Assembly (NCBI GenBank): GCA_016181885.1
Contig: JACOYJ010000023.1
Coordinates: forward strand, 1-49,318
Direction of reading: 5' to 3'
DNA length: 49,318 nt
Origin: Candidatus Pacearchaeota archaeon
GTDB taxonomy: Archaea; Nanobdellota; Nanobdellia; Pacearchaeales; GW2011-AR1
The notes below the pieces were generated by a model. It saw only the letters and a program-made list of their open reading frames with translations, searched no databases and was not told the DNA's origin. The first letter of the stretch is position 1; every line of letters begins with the position of its first letter. This document shows, one piece after another, positions 1 through 49,259 of the stretch. The translations under genes and the position numbers were made by a program.

Positions 1-119
1 TTGTAAATATTCGTAGATGTTTGATTAGATCCATAATTTGTAGAATTGCAAAAAATAATAGCAGTCAATTATGTATTAAAATATTTAAGCGACTCAACCT
101 AGCTTCAAATAGATAAATT

Positions 120-669
120 ATGTATCAACAAAGAAAAAATAAAATTTCTGTAAAAAAAATAGCTGTTTTTTTAAAGAGAAATTATGAAGGAAAAGATTTC
201 AATGTGACTTCTTTTAGTTCACTTAATAATGTGAAAAATAATTCTATACTTTTTTATTCTGCTCTTGCAAATTCGCAGTTCAAAATAAAAGATAACATAA
301 ACTATGATCTAAAAAAATTAGAAAAATTCAAAAATATTGTTCTTATAGCTACTGATGAAATTTAAAAAAAAGTTAACATGCCAATAATTTCTTCAAAAAA
401 TCCAAGATTAGACTTTCAGCGTGTAATAATAGAATTTTTTACAGATGATGAGTTTAAAGCTGGGATCCACAAAACTGCCGTTGTTGAAAAAAACGCTATA
501 ATTGGGAAATGTGTGTATGTTGGTTCAAATTGTTACATAGGAAATAATGTAAAAATTGGTGATAAAACTAAGATATTAAGTAACACCTGTATTTATGGCA
601 AAACAGAAATTGGTTCTAATTCTGTAATACTATCCAACACCACAATCGGTAGTGAGGGATTTGGTTTTA
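120..669 (+). pseudogene. LpxD-like UDP-3-O-acylglucosamine N-acyltransferase remnant, with an in-frame stop and a 3' truncation
   Basis: An LpxD-type N-terminal domain (120-362) and left-handed beta-helix hexapeptide repeats ending IGSEGFGF (cf. LpxD IGxDGFGY) share one reading frame. They are split by TAA at 363-365. Similarity stops near 670, where the sequence becomes antisense of the FabH-like remnant. Confidence 0.5.
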
Positions 670-15540: not shown

Positions 15541-15644
15541 GCCCAGGTAGCTCAGTCGGTAGAGCACACGGCTGTTACCTGTAAGGGAATTAAATTCTCT
15601 AAGCAGAAACCGTGGGGTCGCAGGTTCAAGTCCTGCCTTGGGCG
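15541..15644 (+). tRNA. tRNA-Asn (GUU) with a 31-nt canonical intron (15578-15608)
   Basis: Acceptor GCCCAGG/CTTGGGC, D arm GCTC-AGTCGGTA-GAGC, anticodon stem CACGG/CCGTG, loop CUGUUA+A, T arm GCAGG-TTCAAGT-CCTGC. The bulge-helix-bulge has helix CTGT:GCAG flanked by 3-nt bulges TAC and AAA. Confidence 0.85.
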
Positions 15645-39448: not shown

Positions 39449-39630
39449 TCATTTTTTCTTATTCTTTTATTTTTTTAGAACTAGTTGTTACTTCTTTGCT
39501 TTTTTGCAGTTTTGCTGAAGTTTATTTTTGAAAAAATGTGGGGCGTGGCTAGGAAATAATAAAACCGAAAGGTATATAAATAAGTTATATCTTATAAATA
39601 AGATTAAACTTATTGGAGGTAAAACAAGAA

Positions 39631-39900
39631 ATGGAAGAAAAAATTGAAATGGCAACTGTGAGTTCAAGAGGACAAATTTGTATCCCAAATGACATAAGGG
39701 AAGAAATGGGATTAAAAGAAGGAAGCAAGGTTTTGTTTGCTTTGACTGGAGATTCTTTGATTATGAAGAAAGTTAGCATGCAGACCTTTGCAGAAATCAC
39801 TAAACCTTTGAAGGAAGCCATGAAAAAATCTGGCTTGAAAGAGTCTGATGTTGTTGGTATAATTCACAGATTTAGAGCTCAAAAAAGAGCTGGAAAATGA
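39631..39900 (+). CDS. AbrB/SpoVT-domain antitoxin
   Basis: SSRGQICIPNDIREEMGLKEGSKVLF. GGAGG lies 11 nt upstream of the ATG at 39631. The stop overlaps the PIN gene start (ATGA). Confidence 0.7.
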   Translation: MEEKIEMATVSSRGQICIPNDIREEMGLKEGSKVLFALTGDSLIMKKVSMQTFAEITKPLKEAMKKSGLKESDVVGIIHRFRAQKRAGK

Positions 39901-40316
39901 GAATCACAACAGATACGAATGTCCTTATTTCTTCTACGTTTTGGGAAGGTGCGTCTGATAAAATTATGCAAAAAGTTGAAAATAAAGAAGTTGAGCTTGT
40001 TCTATCTAAGGAGTTAATAAGTGAATTCACAAAAGTATTAGGTTATGATGAAATCAAAGATAAAATTAAAGACAAAAATCTTGAAGTTAGGAGAAGTGTA
40101 GAAAAGATAGTTTCCATTTCAACAATAGTGGAGTCGAGCCAGAAATTTGAAATTGTTAAAGATGACCCGGATGATAATATGGTTATTAATTGCGCTGCTG
40201 AAGGAGATGTTGATTATGTAGTTACTCAAGATAACCATTTGCTTAAAATAAAAGAGTTTAAAGGAATAAAAATTCTAAATCCAGAAGAATTTTTGGAAAT
40301 TTTTGAAAAAGTGTAA
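39897..40316 (+). CDS. PIN-domain toxin
   Basis: N-terminal TTDTNVLISS, DPDDNMVINCA, and YVVTQDNHLL, the typical PIN acidic positions. Confidence 0.7.
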   Translation: MRITTDTNVLISSTFWEGASDKIMQKVENKEVELVLSKELISEFTKVLGYDEIKDKIKDKNLEVRRSVEKIVSISTIVESSQKFEIVKDDPDDNMVINCAAEGDVDYVVTQDNHLLKIKEFKGIKILNPEEFLEIFEKV

Positions 40317-40317
40317 A

Positions 40318-40926
40318 TTATTTTTTAACAGCTTTTTTATAGTTGTTGTTTACCTTATCCCAGTTAATCACATTAAAAAAGTTTTTCACATACTCAGCTC
40401 TGTTGTTTTTGTAAAGGAGATAATAACTATGCTCCCAGACATCTATTCCAAGAATCGGGGTTTTCTCCTGACTTAAAGGAGATTCTTGGTTTTTTGTTTG
40501 CATTATTTCAAGATTTCCTTTTGAATCAACAACAAGCCAGGCCCAACCGCTTCCAAATAAAGTTAATGCTGAATTTGAAAATTGTTCTTTAAAATATTCA
40601 AAACTCGTAAACTTCTTTGTTATTGCCTTTTCAATTTCTCCAGAAATATTGATATCTTTTTTTAGAATTTCCCAGAAAAAGTTGTGATTTACAAAACCAC
40701 CGCCATGATTGATTACTGCTTGTCTTATTTTTTCAGGAACTTTGTTTATCTCTTTGAGCAAGTCTTCTGCTTTTTTCTTCTGCAAGTCAGGAAATTCTTT
40801 TAATGCGTCATTGAGCTTGTCAGTATATGTTTGGTGATGCTTGTCATGATGGATTTTCATCGTTAGTTCATCTATGAAAGGCTCTAAGGAATTGTATGCG
40901 TATTGGAGGGGCTTTAGTTCAAACAT
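40318..40926 (-). CDS. sod: Fe/Mn superoxide dismutase
   Basis: HHDKHHQTY, GGGFVNHNFFW, and the metal-ligand motif DVWEHSYYL. Confidence 0.95.
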   Translation of the reverse strand: MFELKPLQYAYNSLEPFIDELTMKIHHDKHHQTYTDKLNDALKEFPDLQKKKAEDLLKEINKVPEKIRQAVINHGGGFVNHNFFWEILKKDINISGEIEKAITKKFTSFEYFKEQFSNSALTLFGSGWAWLVVDSKGNLEIMQTKNQESPLSQEKTPILGIDVWEHSYYLLYKNNRAEYVKNFFNVINWDKVNNNYKKAVKK

Positions 40927-41009
40927 AAAATTAACTATTGTTTAGTATTTATATAGATTACGATTAATGATTTAGTGAGAAAAACTATCGAAATGTTAAT
41001 AAATGTTGA

Positions 41010-41426
41010 ATGTCCTTGATAATCATGGTTGGTTTAATGGATAGAGTTGGGTTGGTTAATGGCATGGGACATGGCGATGTTGTGCAAGAAAAACCAATAT
41101 CTGCCGCTTATCTTCAAATAACCCCAAGAAAAGGTTTGTTGAAAGATCGTTTTGCTGATGGAAAATTGGAAAAATTCTTTGATGATTTTAAAGGTTTGTT
41201 CGAATTTGACGAATTTGAGAAAGATATGAGAGTTTTTATTGAAAATGAAGAGTCTCTAATCGAACAAGGCCATTTTGGGAAATACGCTTTGTTTTACCAT
41301 GGAAAGTTATGGGGAATTTTACCTGTTTTTAAGCCTTTGATTGATTCATTTCATAAGAAAGAGGGGAATCACTCGTGTTATTGCGACAGAATCGGCGAAG
41401 GATTTGATCCAAATAAAGAATTTTAA
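41010..41426 (+). CDS. Hypothetical protein
   Basis: ORF only. Confidence 0.3.
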   Translation: MSLIIMVGLMDRVGLVNGMGHGDVVQEKPISAAYLQITPRKGLLKDRFADGKLEKFFDDFKGLFEFDEFEKDMRVFIENEESLIEQGHFGKYALFYHGKLWGILPVFKPLIDSFHKKEGNHSCYCDRIGEGFDPNKEF

Positions 41427-41644
41427 TAATAATGCCTTGAACTTGCTGGGGTTAGCTAAAAATTATTAGTTTTTTATATTTATGGGTTTTATTTAAGCTA
41501 TTTTATCTGTTCCAACCAGCCCACCATGCGAAAATGGGACTAATATAGAATTAAATTTTTTATATAGTTAGTTTAAATATCCGCCAAATTGTTTTTCAAT
41601 CATTAATATTTTCGCTGTGAAATAGATAATCAATTTATATTTTT

Positions 41645-42160
41645 TTAAGCCCTTAGCCCTCTTGATTTTATGGCCGCAGAAGTCAATCCTCTCAAAGCTC
41701 TTTTTTTATTTTTTCTATCGCATATCCAATTTATTGTCGGGTCGTTTTTTATCTCCGGCTTTGAAGGATCGACGCAGATTACCTCGAAGAAATAATGAAT
41801 TCCGTCTTTGCCAACTTGGTAGGAATTTAGGACTTCAAGATTTGGATATTTTTTTGCAACACGCGACTCTGCAATCCACTTGTAAGACATTGAAAGATTT
41901 TTTCTTGTATGCATTCTCTTGCTTCTGCGGGCTTTTTTCGGCCTTGTTCTTTTGTGGCCGCCCCTCATTAACCTTGCGCGTATAACTACAAATCCAACTT
42001 TTGCTTTGTAGCCCAATGCCCTTGCTTTATCCAGCCTTAATGGCTTTTCAACTCTAGTGAATGTTTCTGATTTTCTCCATTTAATCATTCTTTCTCTTAG
42101 AGTTTTTGTGTCTGGCTTTTTCCACGCTTGTTTTATATAGTGATAAGCTCCGTGTGTCAT
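41645..42160 (-). CDS. rpl15e: Ribosomal protein L15e
   Basis: GAYHYIKQAWKKP...RLDKARALGYKAKVGFVVIRARLMRGG...RP is a hallmark L15e sequence. Confidence 0.95.
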   Translation of the reverse strand: MTHGAYHYIKQAWKKPDTKTLRERMIKWRKSETFTRVEKPLRLDKARALGYKAKVGFVVIRARLMRGGHKRTRPKKARRSKRMHTRKNLSMSYKWIAESRVAKKYPNLEVLNSYQVGKDGIHYFFEVICVDPSKPEIKNDPTINWICDRKNKKRALRGLTSAAIKSRGLRA

Positions 42161-42291
42161 AGACTATTTATAGAAAAATGGTTTTTAAATATAACTAATA
42201 TGTGAGCTGTAAAGTAAACGTCATCTAATTACCAATGAACTGACCGAAATCTATTAAAGTATTAAGGTATTAGTTAAAGAGAGGTTTTAAA

Positions 42292-42511
42292 ATGACTGAT
42301 GTCCATACTAAAAAAAATAGCAGTTTTTGTGGATGGATGTTTTTGGCACAGATGTCCAAAGCACTATAAAGAACCAGAACAAAATAAGAAATTTTGGAAA
42401 AACAAAATAAATAAAAACACTGCAAGAGATAAATTAGTAACAAAAAAGTTAAAAAAAGAGGGATGGAGGGTTATCCGCGTCTGGGAACACTCTCTCCGAA
42501 GAATAAAATGA
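42292..42511 (+). pseudogene. vsr: Very-short-patch repair endonuclease (Vsr) remnant: C-terminal core only, with a frameshift at an A8 run
   Basis: The frame from 42299 encodes IAVFVDGCFWHRCPKH...FWKNKINKNTARDKLVTKKLKKEGWRVIRVWEHSL, the Vsr core. About half of a normal ~150-aa Vsr is missing. The ATG at 42292 in another frame encodes MTDVHTKK, and it would join the core frame if one A were lost from 42310-42317. Confidence 0.7.
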
Positions 42512-43347
42512 AAAAAGAGGTAAACGTTATAGATTTATTCTGCGGTGCTGGCGGTCTGAGCACCGGATTTAAACAGGCAGGGTTTAATGTTATTCTTGGG
42601 ATAGATAATGACGGCAGTGCGCTGAAAACCTTTAAACTAAATCATCCTGAGTCTGAAATTTTGGAGAAAGATATCTCTAAAAATGACCCAAGAAATTTTT
42701 TAATAAACCAGTTTTTACGAATTGTTTCTTTGGTTGAACCAGAAATTTTTGTTATAGAAAATGTTCATGGATTAAGATCTATGAAAGATGAAAATGGCAG
42801 ATTAGTCTTGGATCTAATAGGAAAAAGAATCAAAAAATTAAGATATTCGTTAAAAACATATATTTTAAACGCAGAAGAATATGGGGTTTCTCAAAAGAGA
42901 AAAAGGATTTTTTTAGTCGGAGGAAGAAAATCGGTTGACTTAAAAATAAAAAAAACAAATAAAACCCTCCTGAAAAATATTTTATTAGATAAAAATGATG
43001 TACCTGGTAAATATTTTTATTCACAGAAACTTATTAAAGGTTTTAAAAGACGAGAAAAAATAAATAAAAAATTAGGGAGGGGGTTTGGATGGAGATTTCT
43101 AAGTCCAGATGATACTTCGTATACAATATCAGCAAGGTATTACAAAGACGGAGCTGAAGCACTTGTTAAATATTCTGAAAATCAAATAAGAAGACTTACT
43201 CCTGAAGAATGTGCATTGATTCAGTCATTCCCTAAGGATTATAGATTCGAAGGGGGAATAATTAAGATGTACAAACAAATAGGTAATGCTGTGCCCCCTA
43301 AGCTGGGTTTTGCAGTTGCGAAAGCTATAAAAAACGCTGTATTTTAG
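42508..43347 (+). CDS. dcm: Dcm-family DNA (cytosine-5) methyltransferase homolog lacking catalytic motif IV (PCQ)
   Basis: Motif I DLFCGAGG, motif VI ENV, motif VIII QKRKRIFLVG, motif IX RRLTPEECALIQSFP and motif X GNAVPP are all present. Between KDISKN and DPRNFLINQF the roughly 28-aa segment that normally carries GGPPCQxFS is absent, in frame. The start overlaps the vsr stop (ATGA). Confidence 0.85.
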   Translation: MKKEVNVIDLFCGAGGLSTGFKQAGFNVILGIDNDGSALKTFKLNHPESEILEKDISKNDPRNFLINQFLRIVSLVEPEIFVIENVHGLRSMKDENGRLVLDLIGKRIKKLRYSLKTYILNAEEYGVSQKRKRIFLVGGRKSVDLKIKKTNKTLLKNILLDKNDVPGKYFYSQKLIKGFKRREKINKKLGRGFGWRFLSPDDTSYTISARYYKDGAEALVKYSENQIRRLTPEECALIQSFPKDYRFEGGIIKMYKQIGNAVPPKLGFAVAKAIKNAVF

Positions 43348-43355
43348 CTTTTTTA

Positions 43356-44672
43356 ATGAATGAAACCTACGAAGTAATCCCAAGTGCAAAAAGATTAATA
43401 AAATCTTTAAGAGATATAGGATATGATTTTTCAACAGCTGTTGCTGATCTTATTGACAATTCAATTGAAGCAGGAGCTTCTAAGGTAGACATTGATGTTG
43501 CATTTTATGGTAATGATTCGTATGTCCGTATTTCAGATAATGGAAACGGAATGAAAAGTGAAAATTTAAAGGAAGCAATGCGTTATGGTTCTGAAAGAGA
43601 CTATCTTGAAGAGGATCTTGGCCGCTTTGGATTAGGATTAAAAACTGCTTCAATGAGCCAATGTCAGTATTTTTCTGTTGCAAGCAGAAGTAAAGAAAAT
43701 AAACAAATTGCTGTTTTTAGTTGGGATTTGTCCCATATTGAACGGACAAATAAATGGGAAATATTGCAACCGAAAGAAAAAGATATACCTGAATTATTGA
43801 AGACTCCAATCTCAGAGCATTCTGGTACTGTTGTTCTGTGGGAGAAATTAGATAGGATTATAGGTTTTAAAAACTCGGAAGGAGAAGCGGCCCGCAACAA
43901 AGTTATTTCTATGTGCAGAGAACTTGAAAATTATTTGAGCATGGTTTTTCATAAATTTTTATCAAATGAGGTTCTCGGAAAATCTTTAGAAATATATCTC
44001 AATCGCAATAAAATTCAACCATGGGATCCTTTTGGACGTCATGAATCCAAAACAAATATACTATCTCCTATAAAAATTAAAATAATCCATAACGGTGCTG
44101 AAAATAAAATATTCCTACAGCCTTATATTCTACCAACAAAAGAAGAATTCTCATCACAAGATTCTTTTCAGAAATTATCCGGCATATCAGGATGGAATCC
44201 CCAGCAGGGATTTTATATTTATCGTGCAAACAGAATGATACAAAGCGGGGGATGGTGTGGTTTAAGAGTAATAGATGAACATACCAAACTCGCCAGAATA
44301 GAATTAAATTTTTCTCCGGCACTCGATGATTTATTTAAAATAAATGTTGCCAAAATGAAAGTTCAATTACCTGTTCAGGCCAGAGAGGAGATTGAACGGG
44401 TGGTTAAACCAATAGTTTCACTGGCCCGTGAACGTTACGATCATGAAAAGAAAAATTTGTTTAAACCATCTGCTCCCAAAGTAACTGAGATTCAACAAAC
44501 TTCTCCAATTAATAAAAACATTTTAATTAAAAATAGCTCTCAAGATATTAAATTTGATCTATTCACATTGAATGAAGTTGAACAAAAGGTAAAAGAATTT
44601 GCAACGAAATACGAAAGTAAAACAATTTCAGATGTTTTTTCACGCTTAAGAAGGAGATTATTTGGGAGATAA
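43356..44672 (+). CDS. MORC-like GHKL (Bergerat-fold) ATPase
   Basis: N box DLIDNSIEAGA, G1 box DNGNGM, G2 box GRFGLGLKTAS. 438 aa. Starts 8 nt after the methyltransferase stop. Confidence 0.8.
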   Translation: MNETYEVIPSAKRLIKSLRDIGYDFSTAVADLIDNSIEAGASKVDIDVAFYGNDSYVRISDNGNGMKSENLKEAMRYGSERDYLEEDLGRFGLGLKTASMSQCQYFSVASRSKENKQIAVFSWDLSHIERTNKWEILQPKEKDIPELLKTPISEHSGTVVLWEKLDRIIGFKNSEGEAARNKVISMCRELENYLSMVFHKFLSNEVLGKSLEIYLNRNKIQPWDPFGRHESKTNILSPIKIKIIHNGAENKIFLQPYILPTKEEFSSQDSFQKLSGISGWNPQQGFYIYRANRMIQSGGWCGLRVIDEHTKLARIELNFSPALDDLFKINVAKMKVQLPVQAREEIERVVKPIVSLARERYDHEKKNLFKPSAPKVTEIQQTSPINKNILIKNSSQDIKFDLFTLNEVEQKVKEFATKYESKTISDVFSRLRRRLFGR

Positions 44673-44673
44673 A

Positions 44674-47307
44674 ATGAATGAAACTGAAACACTTGGATTG
44701 GTAAGACACTTTATTGACATAGGAATTTCCTTGGATGAAGCAGTGAATAATCCTGCTATACCTCTTAATTTTAAGGACAAGATTTTGCAAACAATCAAGG
44801 AAGAAGAAAATATTATACTAGAACCAGCAAACATAATAAAAGACAGCGAAAACTATGAAGATTGGCTAATCAAAGAAGACAGGTCTGATTGGTATTACTG
44901 GAATACTTTACGAAGATATCTACTTGATAAAAAGGGATGGTCTGGACCATCAGTCCAGTCATTAGATAAAGAAACAGACAGAATCTTGGGAATGCTCGAT
45001 TCTCCGAAAAAAGAGATCTTTGATAAAAAAGGTCTTGTACTGGGATTTGTACAAAGCGGGAAAACCTCTAATTACACTGCATTGATAGCAAAAGCTGCTG
45101 ATTCTAGTTATCGGCTCATTATCGTGCTTTCAGGAACAGATAATGGTCTCCGTTTACAGACTCATAGAAGATTAAAAAATGAGTTAGTTGGTAGTAATGA
45201 AGGAAAGGGCGTACCTCTCCCCCCGATAGGTAAACAATGGCATGAGTTTACACGTGTTGATTTAAATGGAGATTTCCAAGCAGGATTTGTTAATACTGCG
45301 GCATTGCAGGGAAATCAACCAGTGTTGATGGTAATTAAGAAAAACGGAGCAGTACTCAGACGACTTATTAGCTGGCTAAATTCAGCATCAGAGGAAATTA
45401 AAAGAACTCTCCCTCTTTTAGTAATTGATGATGAAGCAGATTTGGCAAGCATAGATACAAAAGGATCATATCAGGCAGAAGATGAACTTCTGCCAGAAGA
45501 TTATGAAGCTCCTTCTGTAATAAACGGGTTAATACGTGATTTATTAAATAAGTTCAATCGCAAAGCGTATATTGCTTATACAGCAACACCATTCGCTAAT
45601 ATTTTAATCCCTCATGATAATTATAATCCAAGATTTAGCGATGATTTATATCCCAAAAATTTTATAGTTAATTTACCAAAACCAAATGAATATTTCGGAG
45701 CAGAAGAATTATTTGGACCTATGGACTATGTTTCAGAAGACGAAAACGAAGGGCTTGATGTTATAAGAACCGTTAATGATTCAAATGATTTTTTATTAGA
45801 ACAATACTCTATAATGCATCCTGATATGGAAAAGGCTATTCTTAGTTTCGTGCTGGCTGGTGCGTCAAGAAGTTACAGAAGTAAAAAAGATTTTCCAGCT
45901 ACAATGCTTATTCATATAACTTTAAGAACAATAAAACAAGAGCAACTTAAGGAGATTGTCGATAGGAAATTCACTGAATTTAAAGATGAGTGGAGATACA
46001 ATCGCAAAGAAAAGATTTATGATCAATTACGCAGAATCTGGGGAGAAGATTTTTTACCTGTTATTCAAGCAAAATATCCTAATAAATTGATTAACTTTAA
46101 AGATATTGAAACTAATATTAGTACCTTCTTCGAATCGGTTCAAATAAGATCTCTGAATAGCGTTTCTGGGGACTCTCAGGCACTTGACTACGAAAAAGAA
46201 CCAAATCTTAAGTTAATTGCAATTGGCGGAAATAAACTCTCCAGAGGATTAACTCTTGAAGGACTCTTGATAAGTTTCTTTACAAGAAGAACAAAGCAAT
46301 ATGATACTTTAATGCAGATGGGAAGATGGTTTGGTTTTCGCGGAGGATATGAAGATTTAACAAGAATATATACTACCCCTGAGCTTTCAGGATGGTTTAG
46401 TAGTCTATCACAGATTGAAGCGGAATTACGGGAAGATATTAAAATATATGAAGAACTAAAACTTACTCCTTTTGAAGTTGGTTTGCGAATTAAAGCTCAC
46501 CCAGTTATGCAGGTTACATCGCCTTCAAAACGAAGATTTGCCAATGAAGTATTAATTTCAAAAACTTATAGAGGATTATTATCACAAACTATAAAGTTTC
46601 CTTTGAATAACCTTGAGGTTCTTTCAAAGAGAGAAGAAGAGAATATTGCTATAGTTAAAAAATTTTTATCTGAATTGGGAGAACTTACAGGATTTCATAA
46701 TGAAAGACCATTTTGGAAAAATGTGCCCGCACAAAAAGTGATAGATTTTCTAAATAAATTTCAAACAGATGAAAGCAATTTATCTTTTCGTCCCCAACTA
46801 ATTATTGAATATATAAAAAAATTAAATGAGGAAAACGAATTGATAAAATGGACCGTAGCTATATGCGGAAATAAATCTTATGATTCAGATCTTGGAGATG
46901 TTGATTTAGGGTTAAAAATTAAAATTAATCAGATCAATATTAGCCAAGAAGAAAAAAATAGAAATAGTCTTAAAGGCATTGTAAGTCAGGGAGATGAATT
47001 GATAGGGTTATCATCCGAAAAAGAAGATGAAGTTAATAACCTTATTGCTAGCACGAAAATTCAGAAGAATAATGCTGCCAGATTAATTAGAGACCCTTCC
47101 GAAGGTTTAATTCTATTATACCCTATAAGTAAGAATTCAAAACCTCACTCAAAAAATAGAATTCCTTTATATGAAGATCCAAAAGATCCTCTTGCAAAAA
47201 ATCTAATTGGAATAGCTATCTCTTTTCCTGAGAAATCAAAAATTCCTCAATCTGATGAGTTATATGTCATTGGAACAGTTCCTTGGAGGCCTGAAGATGA
47301 GTCTTAA
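44674..47307 (+). CDS. Z1-domain SF2-like P-loop NTPase
   Basis: Walker A GFVQSGKTSNY, Walker B LLVIDDEADLAS, motif III AYTATPFAN. Z1 signature GGNKLSRGLTLEGLLISFFTRR...DTLMQMGRWFGFRGGYEDLTRIY. The ATG lies 1 nt after the GHKL stop. Confidence 0.8.
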   Translation: MNETETLGLVRHFIDIGISLDEAVNNPAIPLNFKDKILQTIKEEENIILEPANIIKDSENYEDWLIKEDRSDWYYWNTLRRYLLDKKGWSGPSVQSLDKETDRILGMLDSPKKEIFDKKGLVLGFVQSGKTSNYTALIAKAADSSYRLIIVLSGTDNGLRLQTHRRLKNELVGSNEGKGVPLPPIGKQWHEFTRVDLNGDFQAGFVNTAALQGNQPVLMVIKKNGAVLRRLISWLNSASEEIKRTLPLLVIDDEADLASIDTKGSYQAEDELLPEDYEAPSVINGLIRDLLNKFNRKAYIAYTATPFANILIPHDNYNPRFSDDLYPKNFIVNLPKPNEYFGAEELFGPMDYVSEDENEGLDVIRTVNDSNDFLLEQYSIMHPDMEKAILSFVLAGASRSYRSKKDFPATMLIHITLRTIKQEQLKEIVDRKFTEFKDEWRYNRKEKIYDQLRRIWGEDFLPVIQAKYPNKLINFKDIETNISTFFESVQIRSLNSVSGDSQALDYEKEPNLKLIAIGGNKLSRGLTLEGLLISFFTRRTKQYDTLMQMGRWFGFRGGYEDLTRIYTTPELSGWFSSLSQIEAELREDIKIYEELKLTPFEVGLRIKAHPVMQVTSPSKRRFANEVLISKTYRGLLSQTIKFPLNNLEVLSKREEENIAIVKKFLSELGELTGFHNERPFWKNVPAQKVIDFLNKFQTDESNLSFRPQLIIEYIKKLNEENELIKWTVAICGNKSYDSDLGDVDLGLKIKINQINISQEEKNRNSLKGIVSQGDELIGLSSEKEDEVNNLIASTKIQKNNAARLIRDPSEGLILLYPISKNSKPHSKNRIPLYEDPKDPLAKNLIGIAISFPEKSKIPQSDELYVIGTVPWRPEDES

Positions 47308-48289
47308 CCAAAATATATGGACAAAATTAGAAGATGGCTTACCTTCCGGAGAAAGAATCGCTGCAAGATTAGCTATACCTAACAAATCAAGGAAATTGTA
47401 TGCTGGTCTTGATTCATATAAACAACGTCATTTACTTATCCCCCTTGAAGAAAACGAAGAAGAATATTATGATTCAGAAAGCAGAGGTATATCTGTTAAA
47501 ACAAAAGAATTAATCATTAAAGGGTCTGAACAAAAAAAGTATATTGATATTATTTGTCAAGATGTTTCTGGGCACGTTATTTTTGATGCAATTGCTGAAG
47601 ATATCGCAGAAAAATTAGATAAAGGAATTTCAAGAGAGATAATAATAAATGTTATAGGTAAATGGCGTAATTTCTGGGATAAATCCGTACAAGACTTATT
47701 ATCTTATAATGTGATGACCGGACTTTTTGCAGAGTTATGGTTTCTATATTATTGGCTGTTCCCTAGGATGGATAAACTTTCTGCGCTTGCTGCATGGAGA
47801 GGTCCATTTTCAAGCAGGCACGATTTTGAATGGATTGGAAAATCTGTTGAGGTAAAGGCTACTACAAATGTACATAGCAGAACACATAAAATAAATGGAA
47901 TAGAACAACTGTCCCCTCCAGAAAACGGAGAGTTATTTTTATTTAGTTTGCGTATTCGTGAAGAACACGGAGCAAACAACGATCTTCCAAAACTTATTTC
48001 TCTCTGCAGAGAGAAATTAAAAGATAACTCTAAAGCCATAACAAAATTTGAAAATATACTAGGAATTATAGGTTATTCTCCAATACATGACAATGAATAC
48101 TCAAAAATTAAATTTAGAGTTGTTGATGAGAGATTATACAGGGTTACTGATGAGTTTCCGCGTTTGATAGAAGATTCATTTGTGAATGGAATACCTCCAG
48201 GAATCGGAACAATAGAGTATAATATCAATCTAGATGGGTATGACAATTTATGTCTTGCTAAATCCCATGAAGAAAAAATTGACTTTTAG
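47297..48289 (+). CDS. PD-(D/E)XK motif protein (predicted nuclease)
   Basis: SRHDFEWIGKSVEVKATT gives a D...ExK arrangement. The ATG at 47297 overlaps the Z1 gene end by 11 nt. Confidence 0.6.
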   Translation: MSLNQNIWTKLEDGLPSGERIAARLAIPNKSRKLYAGLDSYKQRHLLIPLEENEEEYYDSESRGISVKTKELIIKGSEQKKYIDIICQDVSGHVIFDAIAEDIAEKLDKGISREIIINVIGKWRNFWDKSVQDLLSYNVMTGLFAELWFLYYWLFPRMDKLSALAAWRGPFSSRHDFEWIGKSVEVKATTNVHSRTHKINGIEQLSPPENGELFLFSLRIREEHGANNDLPKLISLCREKLKDNSKAITKFENILGIIGYSPIHDNEYSKIKFRVVDERLYRVTDEFPRLIEDSFVNGIPPGIGTIEYNINLDGYDNLCLAKSHEEKIDF

Positions 48290-48417: not shown

Positions 48418-48666
48418 TCAAACCGAAATATTAATAGGAAGTTTAAGATTAATTTTATCTAAAATCTGCTTTAAGATTATGGCTCTTTTTTTAAAATCCA
48501 ATATGCCAACATTCTTTATTTCGTTGGTGGCAACATCTTTTGTAATAAAAATTCCTTGCTCAATTTCTTCTGTTGTTCCTTCATCTGCTGGCAATCCAAA
48601 GGATATCTCTAAAAAATCCCCTTCCTCGTCATAGTAAATGTCATAGGTATTATATTCTTCCTTCAT
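48418..48666 (-). CDS. DUF2283-family small protein (putative antitoxin)
   Basis: IYYDEEGDFLEISFG...GIFITKD..TNEIKNVGILDFKK matches the DUF2283 pattern. It overlaps its upstream partner by 4 nt. Confidence 0.6.
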   Translation of the reverse strand: MKEEYNTYDIYYDEEGDFLEISFGLPADEGTTEEIEQGIFITKDVATNEIKNVGILDFKKRAIILKQILDKINLKLPINISV

Positions 48667-48953
48667 TTTATGTCCTTACTTAAATAGGCAGTTATAATAA
48701 AACCCTCTCCATTTAAATATTTAACTACAACTAAAACAAAGCGGTTGGGATATTTAAGGTATTTGTAGTTTTTATAATAATAACCCTTTTCAAAGTCTTG
48801 GTTAATTATCTTACTCGGGATTTGAAGCGTTTGTTTTATTTCTTCTAAATATTTCTCCAGATATGGATGCCTTTTCGTAATATGTTTCCATTGTTTTTTA
48901 GTTAATCTTATTTTCCTCTCTGTCTTATCACTTATTTCAAAGATATAACTCAT
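48663..48953 (-). CDS. Small basic protein, putative toxin partner of DUF2283
   Basis: 96 aa and translationally coupled to the DUF2283 gene. The family could not be assigned by eye. Confidence 0.35.
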   Translation of the reverse strand: MSYIFEISDKTERKIRLTKKQWKHITKRHPYLEKYLEEIKQTLQIPSKIINQDFEKGYYYKNYKYLKYPNRFVLVVVKYLNGEGFIITAYLSKDIK

Positions 48954-49041: not shown

Positions 49042-49091
49042 ATGAGGCCGTAGCTCTATGAGATTTCCGTATTCAAATGGAGAGTCTCATC
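49042..49091 (+). repeat. Collapsed tRNA mini-copy (duplicate of the downstream tRNA's 5' end, T-loop and 3' end)
   Basis: ATGAGGCCGTAGCTC (49042-49056) is identical to 49109-49123. TTCAAAT (49072-49078) matches the tRNA T-loop. GTCTCAT (49084-49090) matches the tRNA 3' end at 49254-49260. Confidence 0.45.
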
Positions 49092-49110: not shown

Positions 49111-49259
49111 GAGGCCGTAGCTCAGCCTGGCTAGAGCACTGCATTCTAGCTTGGTGTAAAAGCCAATCAGAAGGTGATTCTGATAGGAATAGGACGAGGT
49201 TCTATCTTATCCTATCTTTAGCAAGGCAGGGGTCCTCGGTTCAAATCCGAGCGGTCTCA
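49111..49259 (+). tRNA. tRNA gene with a 74-nt insertion in the anticodon loop. Isotype unresolved; anticodon is CUA if spliced at 37/38.
   Basis: Acceptor GAGGCCG/CGGTCTC (G4:U69), D arm GCTC-AGCCTGGCTA-GAGC, T arm CTCGG-TTCAAAT-CCGAG, discriminator A. Anticodon stem CTGCA/GGCAG (A31-G39 mismatch). The 5' loop half is TTCTAG. The insertion spans about 49150-49223. Confidence 0.65.

What the first reader, a model, noticed from the sequence alone, without database searches (positions are those of the whole stretch)
42508..43347. Dcm-family methyltransferase with the catalytic PCQ motif cleanly excised
Motifs I, VI, VIII, IX and X, plus a target-recognition-length region, are all present and in order. 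The sequence jumps from KDISKN directly to DPRNFLINQFLRIV...ENV. In M.HaeIII-type enzymes about 28-30 residues lie between those points, including GGPPCQ with the nucleophilic Cys. The deletion is in frame and the ORF is otherwise undamaged. The protein could still bind AdoMet and DNA but should not be able to methylate C5. That is the expected signature of a methyltransferase repurposed as a DNA-reading subunit, or of very recent inactivation.
Basis: partly seen in the sequence, partly recalled or inferred. Interest (0 to 1): 0.65.

Follow-up and report, generated by a model that had tools for sequence, protein, structure and literature searches.

The report
Recently deleted methylase in archaeal defence operon
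The gene is an ordinary DNA cytosine methyltransferase that has lost a 35-codon piece holding its catalytic cysteine; an otherwise identical intact copy occurs in the same groundwater, so this is a very recent knock-out (or an assembly error), not a repurposed protein.

Summary
ORF 42508-43347 is a Dcm-family C5-methyltransferase with motifs I, VI, VIII, IX and X, but without motif IV (GGPPCQ).

It is not a lineage feature. Logan contigs from six runs of one groundwater study carry the same locus. The two retrieved contigs (L001, L082) are 100% identical to the window apart from one SNP in L001 and two extra segments:
- 105 bp (35 codons, ITKK...GGPPCQGFSLAGRRNP) in dcm
- 143 bp (frameshifting) in the adjacent vsr gene

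No public run or collection searched holds either deletion junction. Over the rest of the window from 656 onward, the long contigs listed lie collinear with no gaps. 118 of the 120 best homologues keep PCQ; the exceptions are the window's own protein and a fragment.

The deletion removes a helix, core strand beta-4 and the whole catalytic loop, so a folded "DNA-reading" protein is unlikely.

The gene sits in a five-gene operon in a DPANN-type archaeon: vsr, dcm, a GHKL ATPase (MzaB-like), a Z1 motor (MzaC-like) and a DUF4420 nuclease (MzaD-like). This operon type has already been described computationally.

Best reading: a very recent double loss-of-function haplotype of the methylation module. 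Strong rival: an artefact of this one assembly. Interest is low to moderate.

The parts
42292..42369 (+). Native start of vsr, running into a frameshift. It gives a 25-aa peptide (MTDVHTKK then out-of-frame residues) and a stop.
   Evidence: Translation. The intact allele L001 2163-2525 encodes a 120-aa Vsr (TIGR00632 E 3.1e-38; PF03852 E 9.6e-26).
42314..42317 (.). Junction of a 143-bp deletion in vsr, relative to L001 2187-2329. It has 2-bp (AA) microhomology and is not a multiple of 3.
   Evidence: blastn and junction print-out. Logan contigs of X1-X4 and X6 that reach this point continue into the intact sequence here.
42299..42511 (+). A 70-aa ORF that happens to read the C-terminal half of Vsr from an internal out-of-frame ATG. 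The N-terminal 47 residues are missing.
   Evidence: The Pfam Vsr hit covers only profile positions 56-69 of 74 and is below the cut-off (23 vs 27 bits).
42508..43347 (+). dcm allele lacking residues 59-93 of the intact 314-aa enzyme. Motif IV with the nucleophilic Cys82, strand beta-4 and helix 61-68 are absent. Motifs I, VI, VIII, IX and X and the variable region are present.
42681..42684 (.). Junction of the 105-bp (35-codon) in-frame deletion, relative to L001 2697-2801. It has 2-bp (AA) microhomology.
   Evidence: Contigs of all six runs carry the intact sequence here or continue into it from this point. Junction words and pattern were not found in any run or collection.
43356..44672 (+). 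GHKL (HATPase_c_3) ATPase, MzaB-like, 438 aa. Identical to the copy on L082.
   Evidence: PF13589 E 1.6e-30. NF041932 MzaB E 5.4e-76, but 256 bits against a cut-off of 850. PADLOC MzaB E 3.3e-63. L082 encodes the same protein.
44662..47307 (+). Z1-domain helicase-like protein, MzaC-like, 881 aa. The likely true start is the ATG at 44674, by comparison with L005.
   Evidence: PF10593 E 5.5e-71. NF041933 MzaC E 5.8e-150, 501 bits against a cut-off of 1500. PADLOC MzaC E 2.2e-124. 73% identical to the L005 homologue.
47255..48289 (+). DUF4420 PD-(D/E)XK-motif protein, MzaD-like, the presumed nuclease. The likely true start is the ATG at 47297.
   Evidence: PF14390 E 6.9e-62. NF041934 MzaD E 1.9e-28, 99.6 bits against a cut-off of 420. 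66% identical to the L005 homologue.

Best explanation
The ORF is a freshly made null allele of an ordinary Dcm-family m5C methyltransferase.

In its intact form the operon has five genes: vsr, dcm, a GHKL ATPase, a Z1 motor and a DUF4420 nuclease. It most likely works as a restriction-modification-like defence:
- Dcm marks host DNA at C5.
- Vsr repairs the T:G mismatches that m5C deamination causes.
- The MzaBCD-like trio attacks unmarked DNA. The GHKL ATPase and the DEAD-Z1 translocase drive a PD-(D/E)XK nuclease.

In the haplotype captured by this window, two short deletions with 2-bp microhomology have knocked out both genes of the methylation module:
- 105 bp removes helix, beta-4 and the catalytic loop of Dcm.
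- 143 bp frameshifts vsr.

The three restriction-type genes are untouched.

Shown: the deletions, their uniqueness, the intact sister allele, and the operon content. Inferred: that the product is inactive or misfolded, that the two losses belong together (Vsr is pointless or mutagenic without Dcm, and Dcm is mutagenic without Vsr), and the roles of the five proteins.
For: - The intact allele L001 (SRR12113424) is identical to window 40130-44273 except for one SNP, a 143-bp segment and a 105-bp segment. L082 (SRR12113430) is 100% identical over 42314-46487 apart from the 105 bp.
- From 656 onward, the long contigs listed for two runs cover most of the window and lie gap-free. Two random events both falling in the 1.3-kb vsr-dcm pair have a chance of roughly (1.3/49)^2, about 7e-4. 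That points to a linked or selected event rather than scattered damage.
- All full-length homologues keep PCQ.
- The same five-gene order, with an intact PPCQ Dcm and a 120-aa Vsr, occurs in a Woesearchaeota MAG (L005).
- AF2 of the intact enzyme gives pLDDT 87.8. Residues 59-93 hold helix 61-68, strand 75-78 and the flexible loop. The deleted form gives pLDDT 80.9, with the N-terminal half falling to 50-85 and the five models ranging from 62.9 to 80.9.
- The population is demonstrably multi-strain. Alternative alleles co-occur within runs, so a deletion haplotype is plausible.
- MzaABCDE, the validated relative of the BCD genes, is described as five genes with MzaA a sigma factor, and no methylase is mentioned among them (PMC9523054). 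It cuts DNA through MzaD (bioRxiv 10.1101/2022.06.16.496414). An M-less state need not therefore be lethal.
Against: - No public evidence for the deletion junctions exists outside this window. The best runs hold 0.96 of the sampled words, which is what the intact allele would give. Junction words are in no indexed run. The junction pattern is absent from genome contigs and metagenome contigs.
- Contigs of all six runs examined show the intact form.
- Raw reads could not be inspected, because all runs are held only as contigs.
- In a classical R-M system, losing M while R stays intact should be lethal.
- The AF2 comparison is weak evidence, because the two alignments had different depths.
Confidence: 0.55

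Rival explanations
1. The two deletions are artefacts of the assembly or processing that produced this contig, such as a mis-closed gap, a chimeric template or a consensus error. The organism then carries the intact vsr-dcm genes seen in every other assembly.
For: - All six runs of the only study that holds this genome give the intact form.
- Junction words or pattern are found nowhere else.
- Depth is low, about 4-15x, and Logan contigs often break inside or near these two segments, so this stretch assembles poorly.
- The 105-bp segment contains GGGGGGCCCCC in a genome of about 33% GC.
- Both junctions have the same look, CTAAAA(A..)T.
- The window's first 655 bases also disagree with the Logan contigs, so the contig is not flawless.
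Against: - As I understand de Bruijn assemblers (my own knowledge, not tested here), they cannot create a junction with only 2 bp of overlap unless reads span it.
- The long contigs listed elsewhere in the window lie gap-free.
- Both hits fall in two functionally coupled genes, which is what selection would give. They are also neighbours, though, so a local artefact could hit both.
Confidence: 0.33
2. The motif-IV-less protein is a functional, catalytically dead methyltransferase retained as the DNA-recognition subunit of the GHKL-Z1-DUF4420 complex.
For: The ORF is open and in frame, and the variable (target-recognition) region and motifs IX and X are intact. The partner genes are intact.
Against: - The deletion is unique among 120 homologues.
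- There has been no sequence change since the deletion.
- The partner deletion in vsr is a plain frameshift.
- Core strand beta-4 is lost, not only the loop, and model confidence falls across the AdoMet half.
- By inference, site recognition without self-methylation would direct restriction at the host.
Confidence: 0.04
3. The deletion haplotype is a selected 'defence-off' variant. The MzaBCD-like restriction needs the methyltransferase for target recognition, as in Type I/III logic, so destroying Dcm safely switches the whole system off, and vsr is lost with it.
For: - The restriction-type genes carry no lesion, and a carrier of the allele was evidently abundant enough to assemble, if the allele is real.
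- No other recognition domain was detected in the three partners by Pfam or NCBIfam.
- Close Vsr-Dcm pairs sit next to different HATPase_c_3 partners in relatives.
Against: This is pure inference from gene content. The reality of the allele is unproven. MzaABCDE is described without a methylase among its five genes (PMC9523054), which suggests BCD-type modules find DNA on their own.
Confidence: 0.08

Closest known systems
Dcm-family C5-cytosine DNA methyltransferases (M.HaeIII, M.HhaI; Pfam PF00145)
   Same: Clear homologue: E 5e-32 to M.HaeIII and E 9e-18 to M.HhaI. Motifs I, VI, VIII, IX and X are in order. It is paired with Vsr, as many m5C systems are.
   Different: It lacks the 35 residues that hold motif IV (PCQ), beta-4 and the preceding helix. 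It is a deletion allele, not a variant enzyme.
Putative Z1 / PD-(D/E)XK (DUF4420) / cytosine-methyltransferase defence system, type I (Miller et al. 2022, PMC9523054)
   Same: The same three core genes. The Vsr here would fit the reported association of type I with known DNA-repair endonucleases. It is operonic and widely spread by horizontal transfer.
   Different: That paper reports the system across the bacterial kingdom; this copy is in a DPANN-type archaeon. The methylase and Vsr are disrupted in this copy. The system has never been tested experimentally.
MzaABCDE anti-phage system (Salmonella/E. coli; NCBIfam NF041932-4, PADLOC MzaB/C/D)
   Same: The GHKL ATPase, Z1 protein and DUF4420 nuclease are homologous to MzaB, MzaC and MzaD. 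MzaD is a DNA nuclease (bioRxiv 10.1101/2022.06.16.496414).
   Different: All three scores are far below the equivalog cut-offs. There is no MzaA or AIPR MzaE in the window. MZA is described without a methylase or Vsr (PMC9523054).
CglI / NgoAVII ATP-dependent restriction systems (PMC4267653, PMC5861437)
   Same: An m5C methylase combined with a DEAD-Z1 helicase-like motor that translocates on dsDNA to activate cleavage.
   Different: Their nuclease is an R-protein with its own site-recognition and nuclease domains. Here the nuclease candidate is DUF4420, and there is an extra GHKL ATPase.

Membership tests
Dcm-family C5-MTase (PF00145 / TIGR00675) | Profile match above the curated cut-off | tested here: met
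   185.3 bits against a cut-off of 22. 158.4 bits against a cut-off of 100.65.
Dcm-family C5-MTase (PF00145 / TIGR00675) | Motif I FxGxG (AdoMet binding), motif VI ENV, motif VIII QxRxR, motif IX and motif X GNAVP | tested here: met
   FCGAGG, ENV, QKRKR, RRLTPEECALIQSFP and GNAVPP all sit in conserved columns.
Dcm-family C5-MTase (PF00145 / TIGR00675) | Motif IV Pro-Cys with the catalytic nucleophile | tested here: not met
   There is a 35-column gap over GGPPCQ. HaeIII residues 56-83 are unmatched. There is no PC dipeptide and no G.PC[QS] in six frames. The protein is a homologue but cannot be filed as an active C5-MTase.
Vsr very-short-patch endonuclease (TIGR00632) | Full-length domain of about 120 aa, including the N-terminal half | tested here: not met
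   The window copy is frameshifted after codon 8. Only the C-terminal 70 aa are readable, and the Pfam hit is below cut-off. The intact allele passes at 130.7 bits against a cut-off of 97.85.
MzaABCDE anti-phage system | MzaB, MzaC and MzaD equivalogs | tested here: not met
   The hits are significant but far below the equivalog cut-offs: 256 against 850, 501 against 1500 and 99.6 against 420. These are relatives, not equivalogs.
MzaABCDE anti-phage system | MzaA (sigma-factor-like) and MzaE (AIPR) present | tested here: inconclusive
   Neither is adjacent. Upstream is L15e. Downstream is a PBECR2-like ORF and a tRNA, and then the contig ends at 49318. In L005 no sixth gene abuts the five-gene run; the next ORF of at least 100 aa starts about 1.5 kb further on.
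Z1 / DUF4420 / C5-MTase putative defence system, type I (Miller 2022) | Co-oriented genes for a Z1 protein of about 900 aa, a DUF4420 PD-(D/E)XK protein and a cytosine methyltransferase, associated with a repair endonuclease | tested here: met
   PF10593, PF14390, PF00145 and Vsr lie in one co-directional, overlapping gene string. The methylase and Vsr are disrupted in this copy.
CglI/NgoAVII restriction system | An R-protein with its own site-recognition and nuclease domains, partnered with the Z1 helicase | tested here: not met
   No such protein was found. The partners are HATPase_c_3 and DUF4420.

The most novel reading that the evidence does not exclude
If the deletion haplotype is real and its carriers are viable, nature has performed a clean 'M-minus, R-intact' knock-out of a Z1/DUF4420/GHKL defence operon. 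That would imply one of two things. Either this untested class of system depends on its methyltransferase for target recognition, as in Type I/III logic, or it discriminates self from non-self without methylation, as MzaABCDE appears to. The two co-existing alleles in one aquifer would give a natural experiment on that question.
Probability: 0.15. Interest if true: 0.5.

Novelty: new member of a known kind. Interest (0 to 1): 0.25.

Why it matters
On its own it matters little. Disrupted methylase genes are common, and this one has an intact twin in the same habitat.

It is useful as a caution. A "cleanly excised catalytic motif" in a single metagenomic contig should be checked against sister assemblies before it is read as neofunctionalisation.

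Modest positive value lies in two points:
- It places the Vsr-Dcm-GHKL-Z1-DUF4420 operon type in DPANN-type archaea.
- If the allele is genuine, it offers a natural methylase-null variant of a defence system whose self/non-self logic is unknown.

Tried and rejected
- **Displaced catalytic loop or split gene.** There is no PC motif in the protein and no G.PC[QS] in six frames, and the missing DNA and peptide are not elsewhere in the window. Rejected.
- **Slippage between flanking direct repeats.** Local alignment of the junction contexts against 3000 random position pairs gave p = 0.63 and p = 0.09. There is no significant repeat, only 2-bp microhomology.
- **Finding the window's own record or a second carrier of the junction.** The look-up of encoding contigs on the deleted protein and on the TTG-start Z1 ORF found nothing. 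The exact junction pattern gave 0 hits in genome contigs and in metagenome contigs. A junction-centred run search returned only runs holding 1 of 3 words.
- **Inferring the methylase's target from palindrome avoidance in the window.** GATC is the most depleted (0.53) and GGCC is at 0.72. With 49 kb this is uninformative for this system.
- **Sigma-70 promoter and terminator scan of 42100-43400.** Nothing was found, and the scan is not suited to archaea anyway.
- **Spliced intron or transcript-derived sequence.** Rejected, because the missing pieces encode the most conserved protein motifs.
- **One literature query** failed on a term-length rule.

Full report
**What is in the window**

ORF 42508-43347 (+, 279 aa) is a Dcm-family C5-cytosine methyltransferase. 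Pfam PF00145 gives E 2.5e-54 and TIGR00675 gives E 3.3e-46. Against solved structures it matches M.HaeIII in three blocks. Residues 6-60 align to HaeIII 2-55, and residues 59-149 align to HaeIII 84-171. About 28 HaeIII residues, the stretch where the Pro-Cys catalytic motif lies (from my knowledge of the enzyme), have no counterpart.

In an alignment with 11 close homologues, the window protein alone shows a 35-column gap over ITKKD...IIGGPPCQGFSxAGRRNP. Motifs I (FCGAGG), VI (ENV), VIII (QKRKR), IX and X (GNAVPP) sit in conserved columns.

There is no hidden catalytic loop. The protein has only two Cys, neither preceded by Pro. No G.PC[QS] occurs in any frame of the window. The missing DNA is not elsewhere in the window.

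**The deletion is an allele, not a lineage trait**

The best database hit, P0002 (314 aa), is identical to the window protein apart from the 35 residues. Its contig, L001, is a Logan assembly of SRR12113424 from a groundwater metagenome, 4392 bp long. It matches window 40130-44273 with one SNP and two extra segments:
- 105 bp (35 codons) in dcm, after window position 42682
- 143 bp in the upstream gene, after window position 42315

A second contig from another run, L082 (SRR12113430), is 100% identical over 42314-46487 apart from the same 105 bp.

The upstream gene in L001 is a complete 120-aa Vsr endonuclease (TIGR00632 E 3.1e-38). In the window the 143-bp loss is not a multiple of three. The native vsr frame stops after 25 codons, and only the C-terminal half remains readable, from a fortuitous ATG at 42299. 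It matters because one deletion is in frame and the other is not, so in-frameness carries no message.

**How specific and how real**

I laid Logan contigs of six runs of the one study that holds this genome on the window. At both sites the contigs carry the intact sequence or continue into it. None spans a deletion junction.

The best runs hold 0.96 of the sampled words of 42100-43500. That is the share expected from the intact allele, because about 4% of the words cross the junctions. A junction-centred query found no run holding the junction words. The exact junction string is absent from the genome and metagenome collections.

Elsewhere, from 656 to the end of the window, the long contigs listed for two runs lie gap-free. 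Two independent random events both landing in the 1.3-kb vsr-dcm pair would have a probability of about 7e-4.

The junctions have only 2-bp (AA) microhomology and no significant flanking repeats. Both follow a CTAAAA string, which occurs 29 times on the + strand of the window. I cannot explain that.

Because all runs are held only as contigs, which drop minor variants, I could not count reads. Whether the deletions exist in cells or only in this assembly remains open. I put it at roughly 2:1 in favour of a real haplotype, for three reasons:
- As I understand graph assemblers (my own knowledge, not tested here), they need reads across a 2-bp-overlap junction.
- The rest of the contig agrees with the other assemblies.
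- The population is visibly multi-strain.

**Consequence for the protein**

An AlphaFold model of the intact enzyme has mean pLDDT 87.8. It places helix 61-68, strand 75-78 (beta-4 of the AdoMet-binding sheet) and the flexible catalytic loop (pLDDT below 50 at 84-88) inside the deleted residues 59-93.

The deleted form models worse. Its mean pLDDT is 80.9, the five models range from 62.9 to 80.9, and the N-terminal half drops from about 95 to 50-85. This comparison is only suggestive, because the two alignments had different depths.

Losing a central strand makes a well-folded "reader" protein that binds AdoMet and DNA unlikely.

**Context**

The host is archaeal and AT-rich, about 33% GC. Supporting features are ribosomal protein L15e directly upstream on the minus strand, an ATP-dependent DNA ligase, and two intron-bearing tRNAs. 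The closest methylase relatives are in Woesearchaeota, Pacearchaeota and Nanoarchaeia MAGs.

The gene string is:
- vsr
- dcm
- a GHKL ATPase (43356-44672, HATPase_c_3)
- a Z1-domain protein (44662-47307)
- a DUF4420 PD-(D/E)XK protein (47255-48289)

The last three are relatives of MzaB, MzaC and MzaD of the MZA anti-phage system, but they score far below the equivalog cut-offs. No MzaA or AIPR MzaE is present.

The same five genes, in the same order and with an intact PPCQ methylase and full Vsr, occur in a Woesearchaeota MAG (L005). A similar set occurs in a SAR86 genome (L015). Other close Vsr-Dcm pairs sit beside single large HATPase_c_3 proteins instead.

A Z1 + DUF4420-type PD-(D/E)XK + cytosine-methyltransferase operon associated with repair endonucleases has already been proposed as a defence system (PMC9523054). 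Z1 domains are part of a DEAD-Z1 dsDNA translocase in CglI/NgoAVII restriction (PMC5861437, PMC4267653). MzaD is a DNA nuclease (bioRxiv 10.1101/2022.06.16.496414).

**Most likely mechanism and meaning**

In the intact operon, Dcm marks self DNA. Vsr repairs the T:G mismatches left by m5C deamination. The GHKL, Z1 and DUF4420 trio cuts unmarked DNA. These roles are inferred from homology.

The window shows a haplotype in which both methylation-side genes are knocked out and the restriction-side genes are untouched. Co-loss of dcm and vsr is coherent, since each is useless or mutagenic without the other. This is a recent loss of function, or an artefact. It is not a repurposed subunit: no relative shares it, no time has passed since it arose, and a dead methylase that still guided restriction would target the unmethylated host.

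The only non-trivial implication applies if the allele is real. Losing the methylase would then be tolerated while the restriction-type genes stay intact. That would say something about how this untested system class tells self from non-self.

**Verdict**

The finding is a new member of a known kind, and its interest is low to moderate.

Noticed in passing
window 42292-42511: The vsr gene next to the methylase carries its own 143-bp frameshifting deletion relative to the intact allele on L001.
   Followed up: yes
window 42310-42316 and 42677-42683: Both deletion junctions lie immediately after a CTAAAA(AA) string and read CTAAAAA..T in the window. CTAAAA occurs only 29 times on the + strand. 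This is a post-hoc pattern and is unexplained. It could be a mutational hotspot or a processing signature.
   Followed up: partly
window 15541-15644 and 49111-49259: Rfam finds two tRNA genes, 104 and 149 nt long, that are probably intron-bearing and typical of archaea. ARAGORN found none. A 15-nt copy of the second tRNA's 5' end (ATGAGGCCGTAGCTC) lies 67 nt upstream, at 49042-49056. Logan contigs show an alternative arrangement there.
   Followed up: partly
window 1-655: The long Logan contigs of two runs that are collinear with the window from 656 onward continue with different sequence to the left, and depth over 1-667 is low (1.5-2.9). This is a structural difference or a chimeric contig end.
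   Followed up: no
window 39613-40316: A MazE/AbrB-type antitoxin ORF (39613-39900) overlaps a PIN-domain toxin ORF (39897-40316). This toxin-antitoxin pair lies about 2 kb upstream of the defence operon.
   Followed up: no
window 48663-48953 (-): A 96-aa ORF with a PBECR2 (Barnase/EndoU/ColicinE5-RelE-like nuclease) domain lies just downstream of the DUF4420 gene.
   Followed up: no
window 45106: An A/G polymorphism in the Z1 gene (Ser149 vs Gly, shortly after the GKT Walker A motif) segregates among the runs. It is not linked to the deletions.
   Followed up: partly
Logan contigs of runs X5 and X6 laid at window 42361 and 42461: Contigs begin with AGATGTGTATAAGAGACAG, which I recognise as the Nextera transposase mosaic end (from memory, not tested). 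If so, these public assemblies contain adapter-derived ends and the libraries are tagmentation-based.
   Followed up: no
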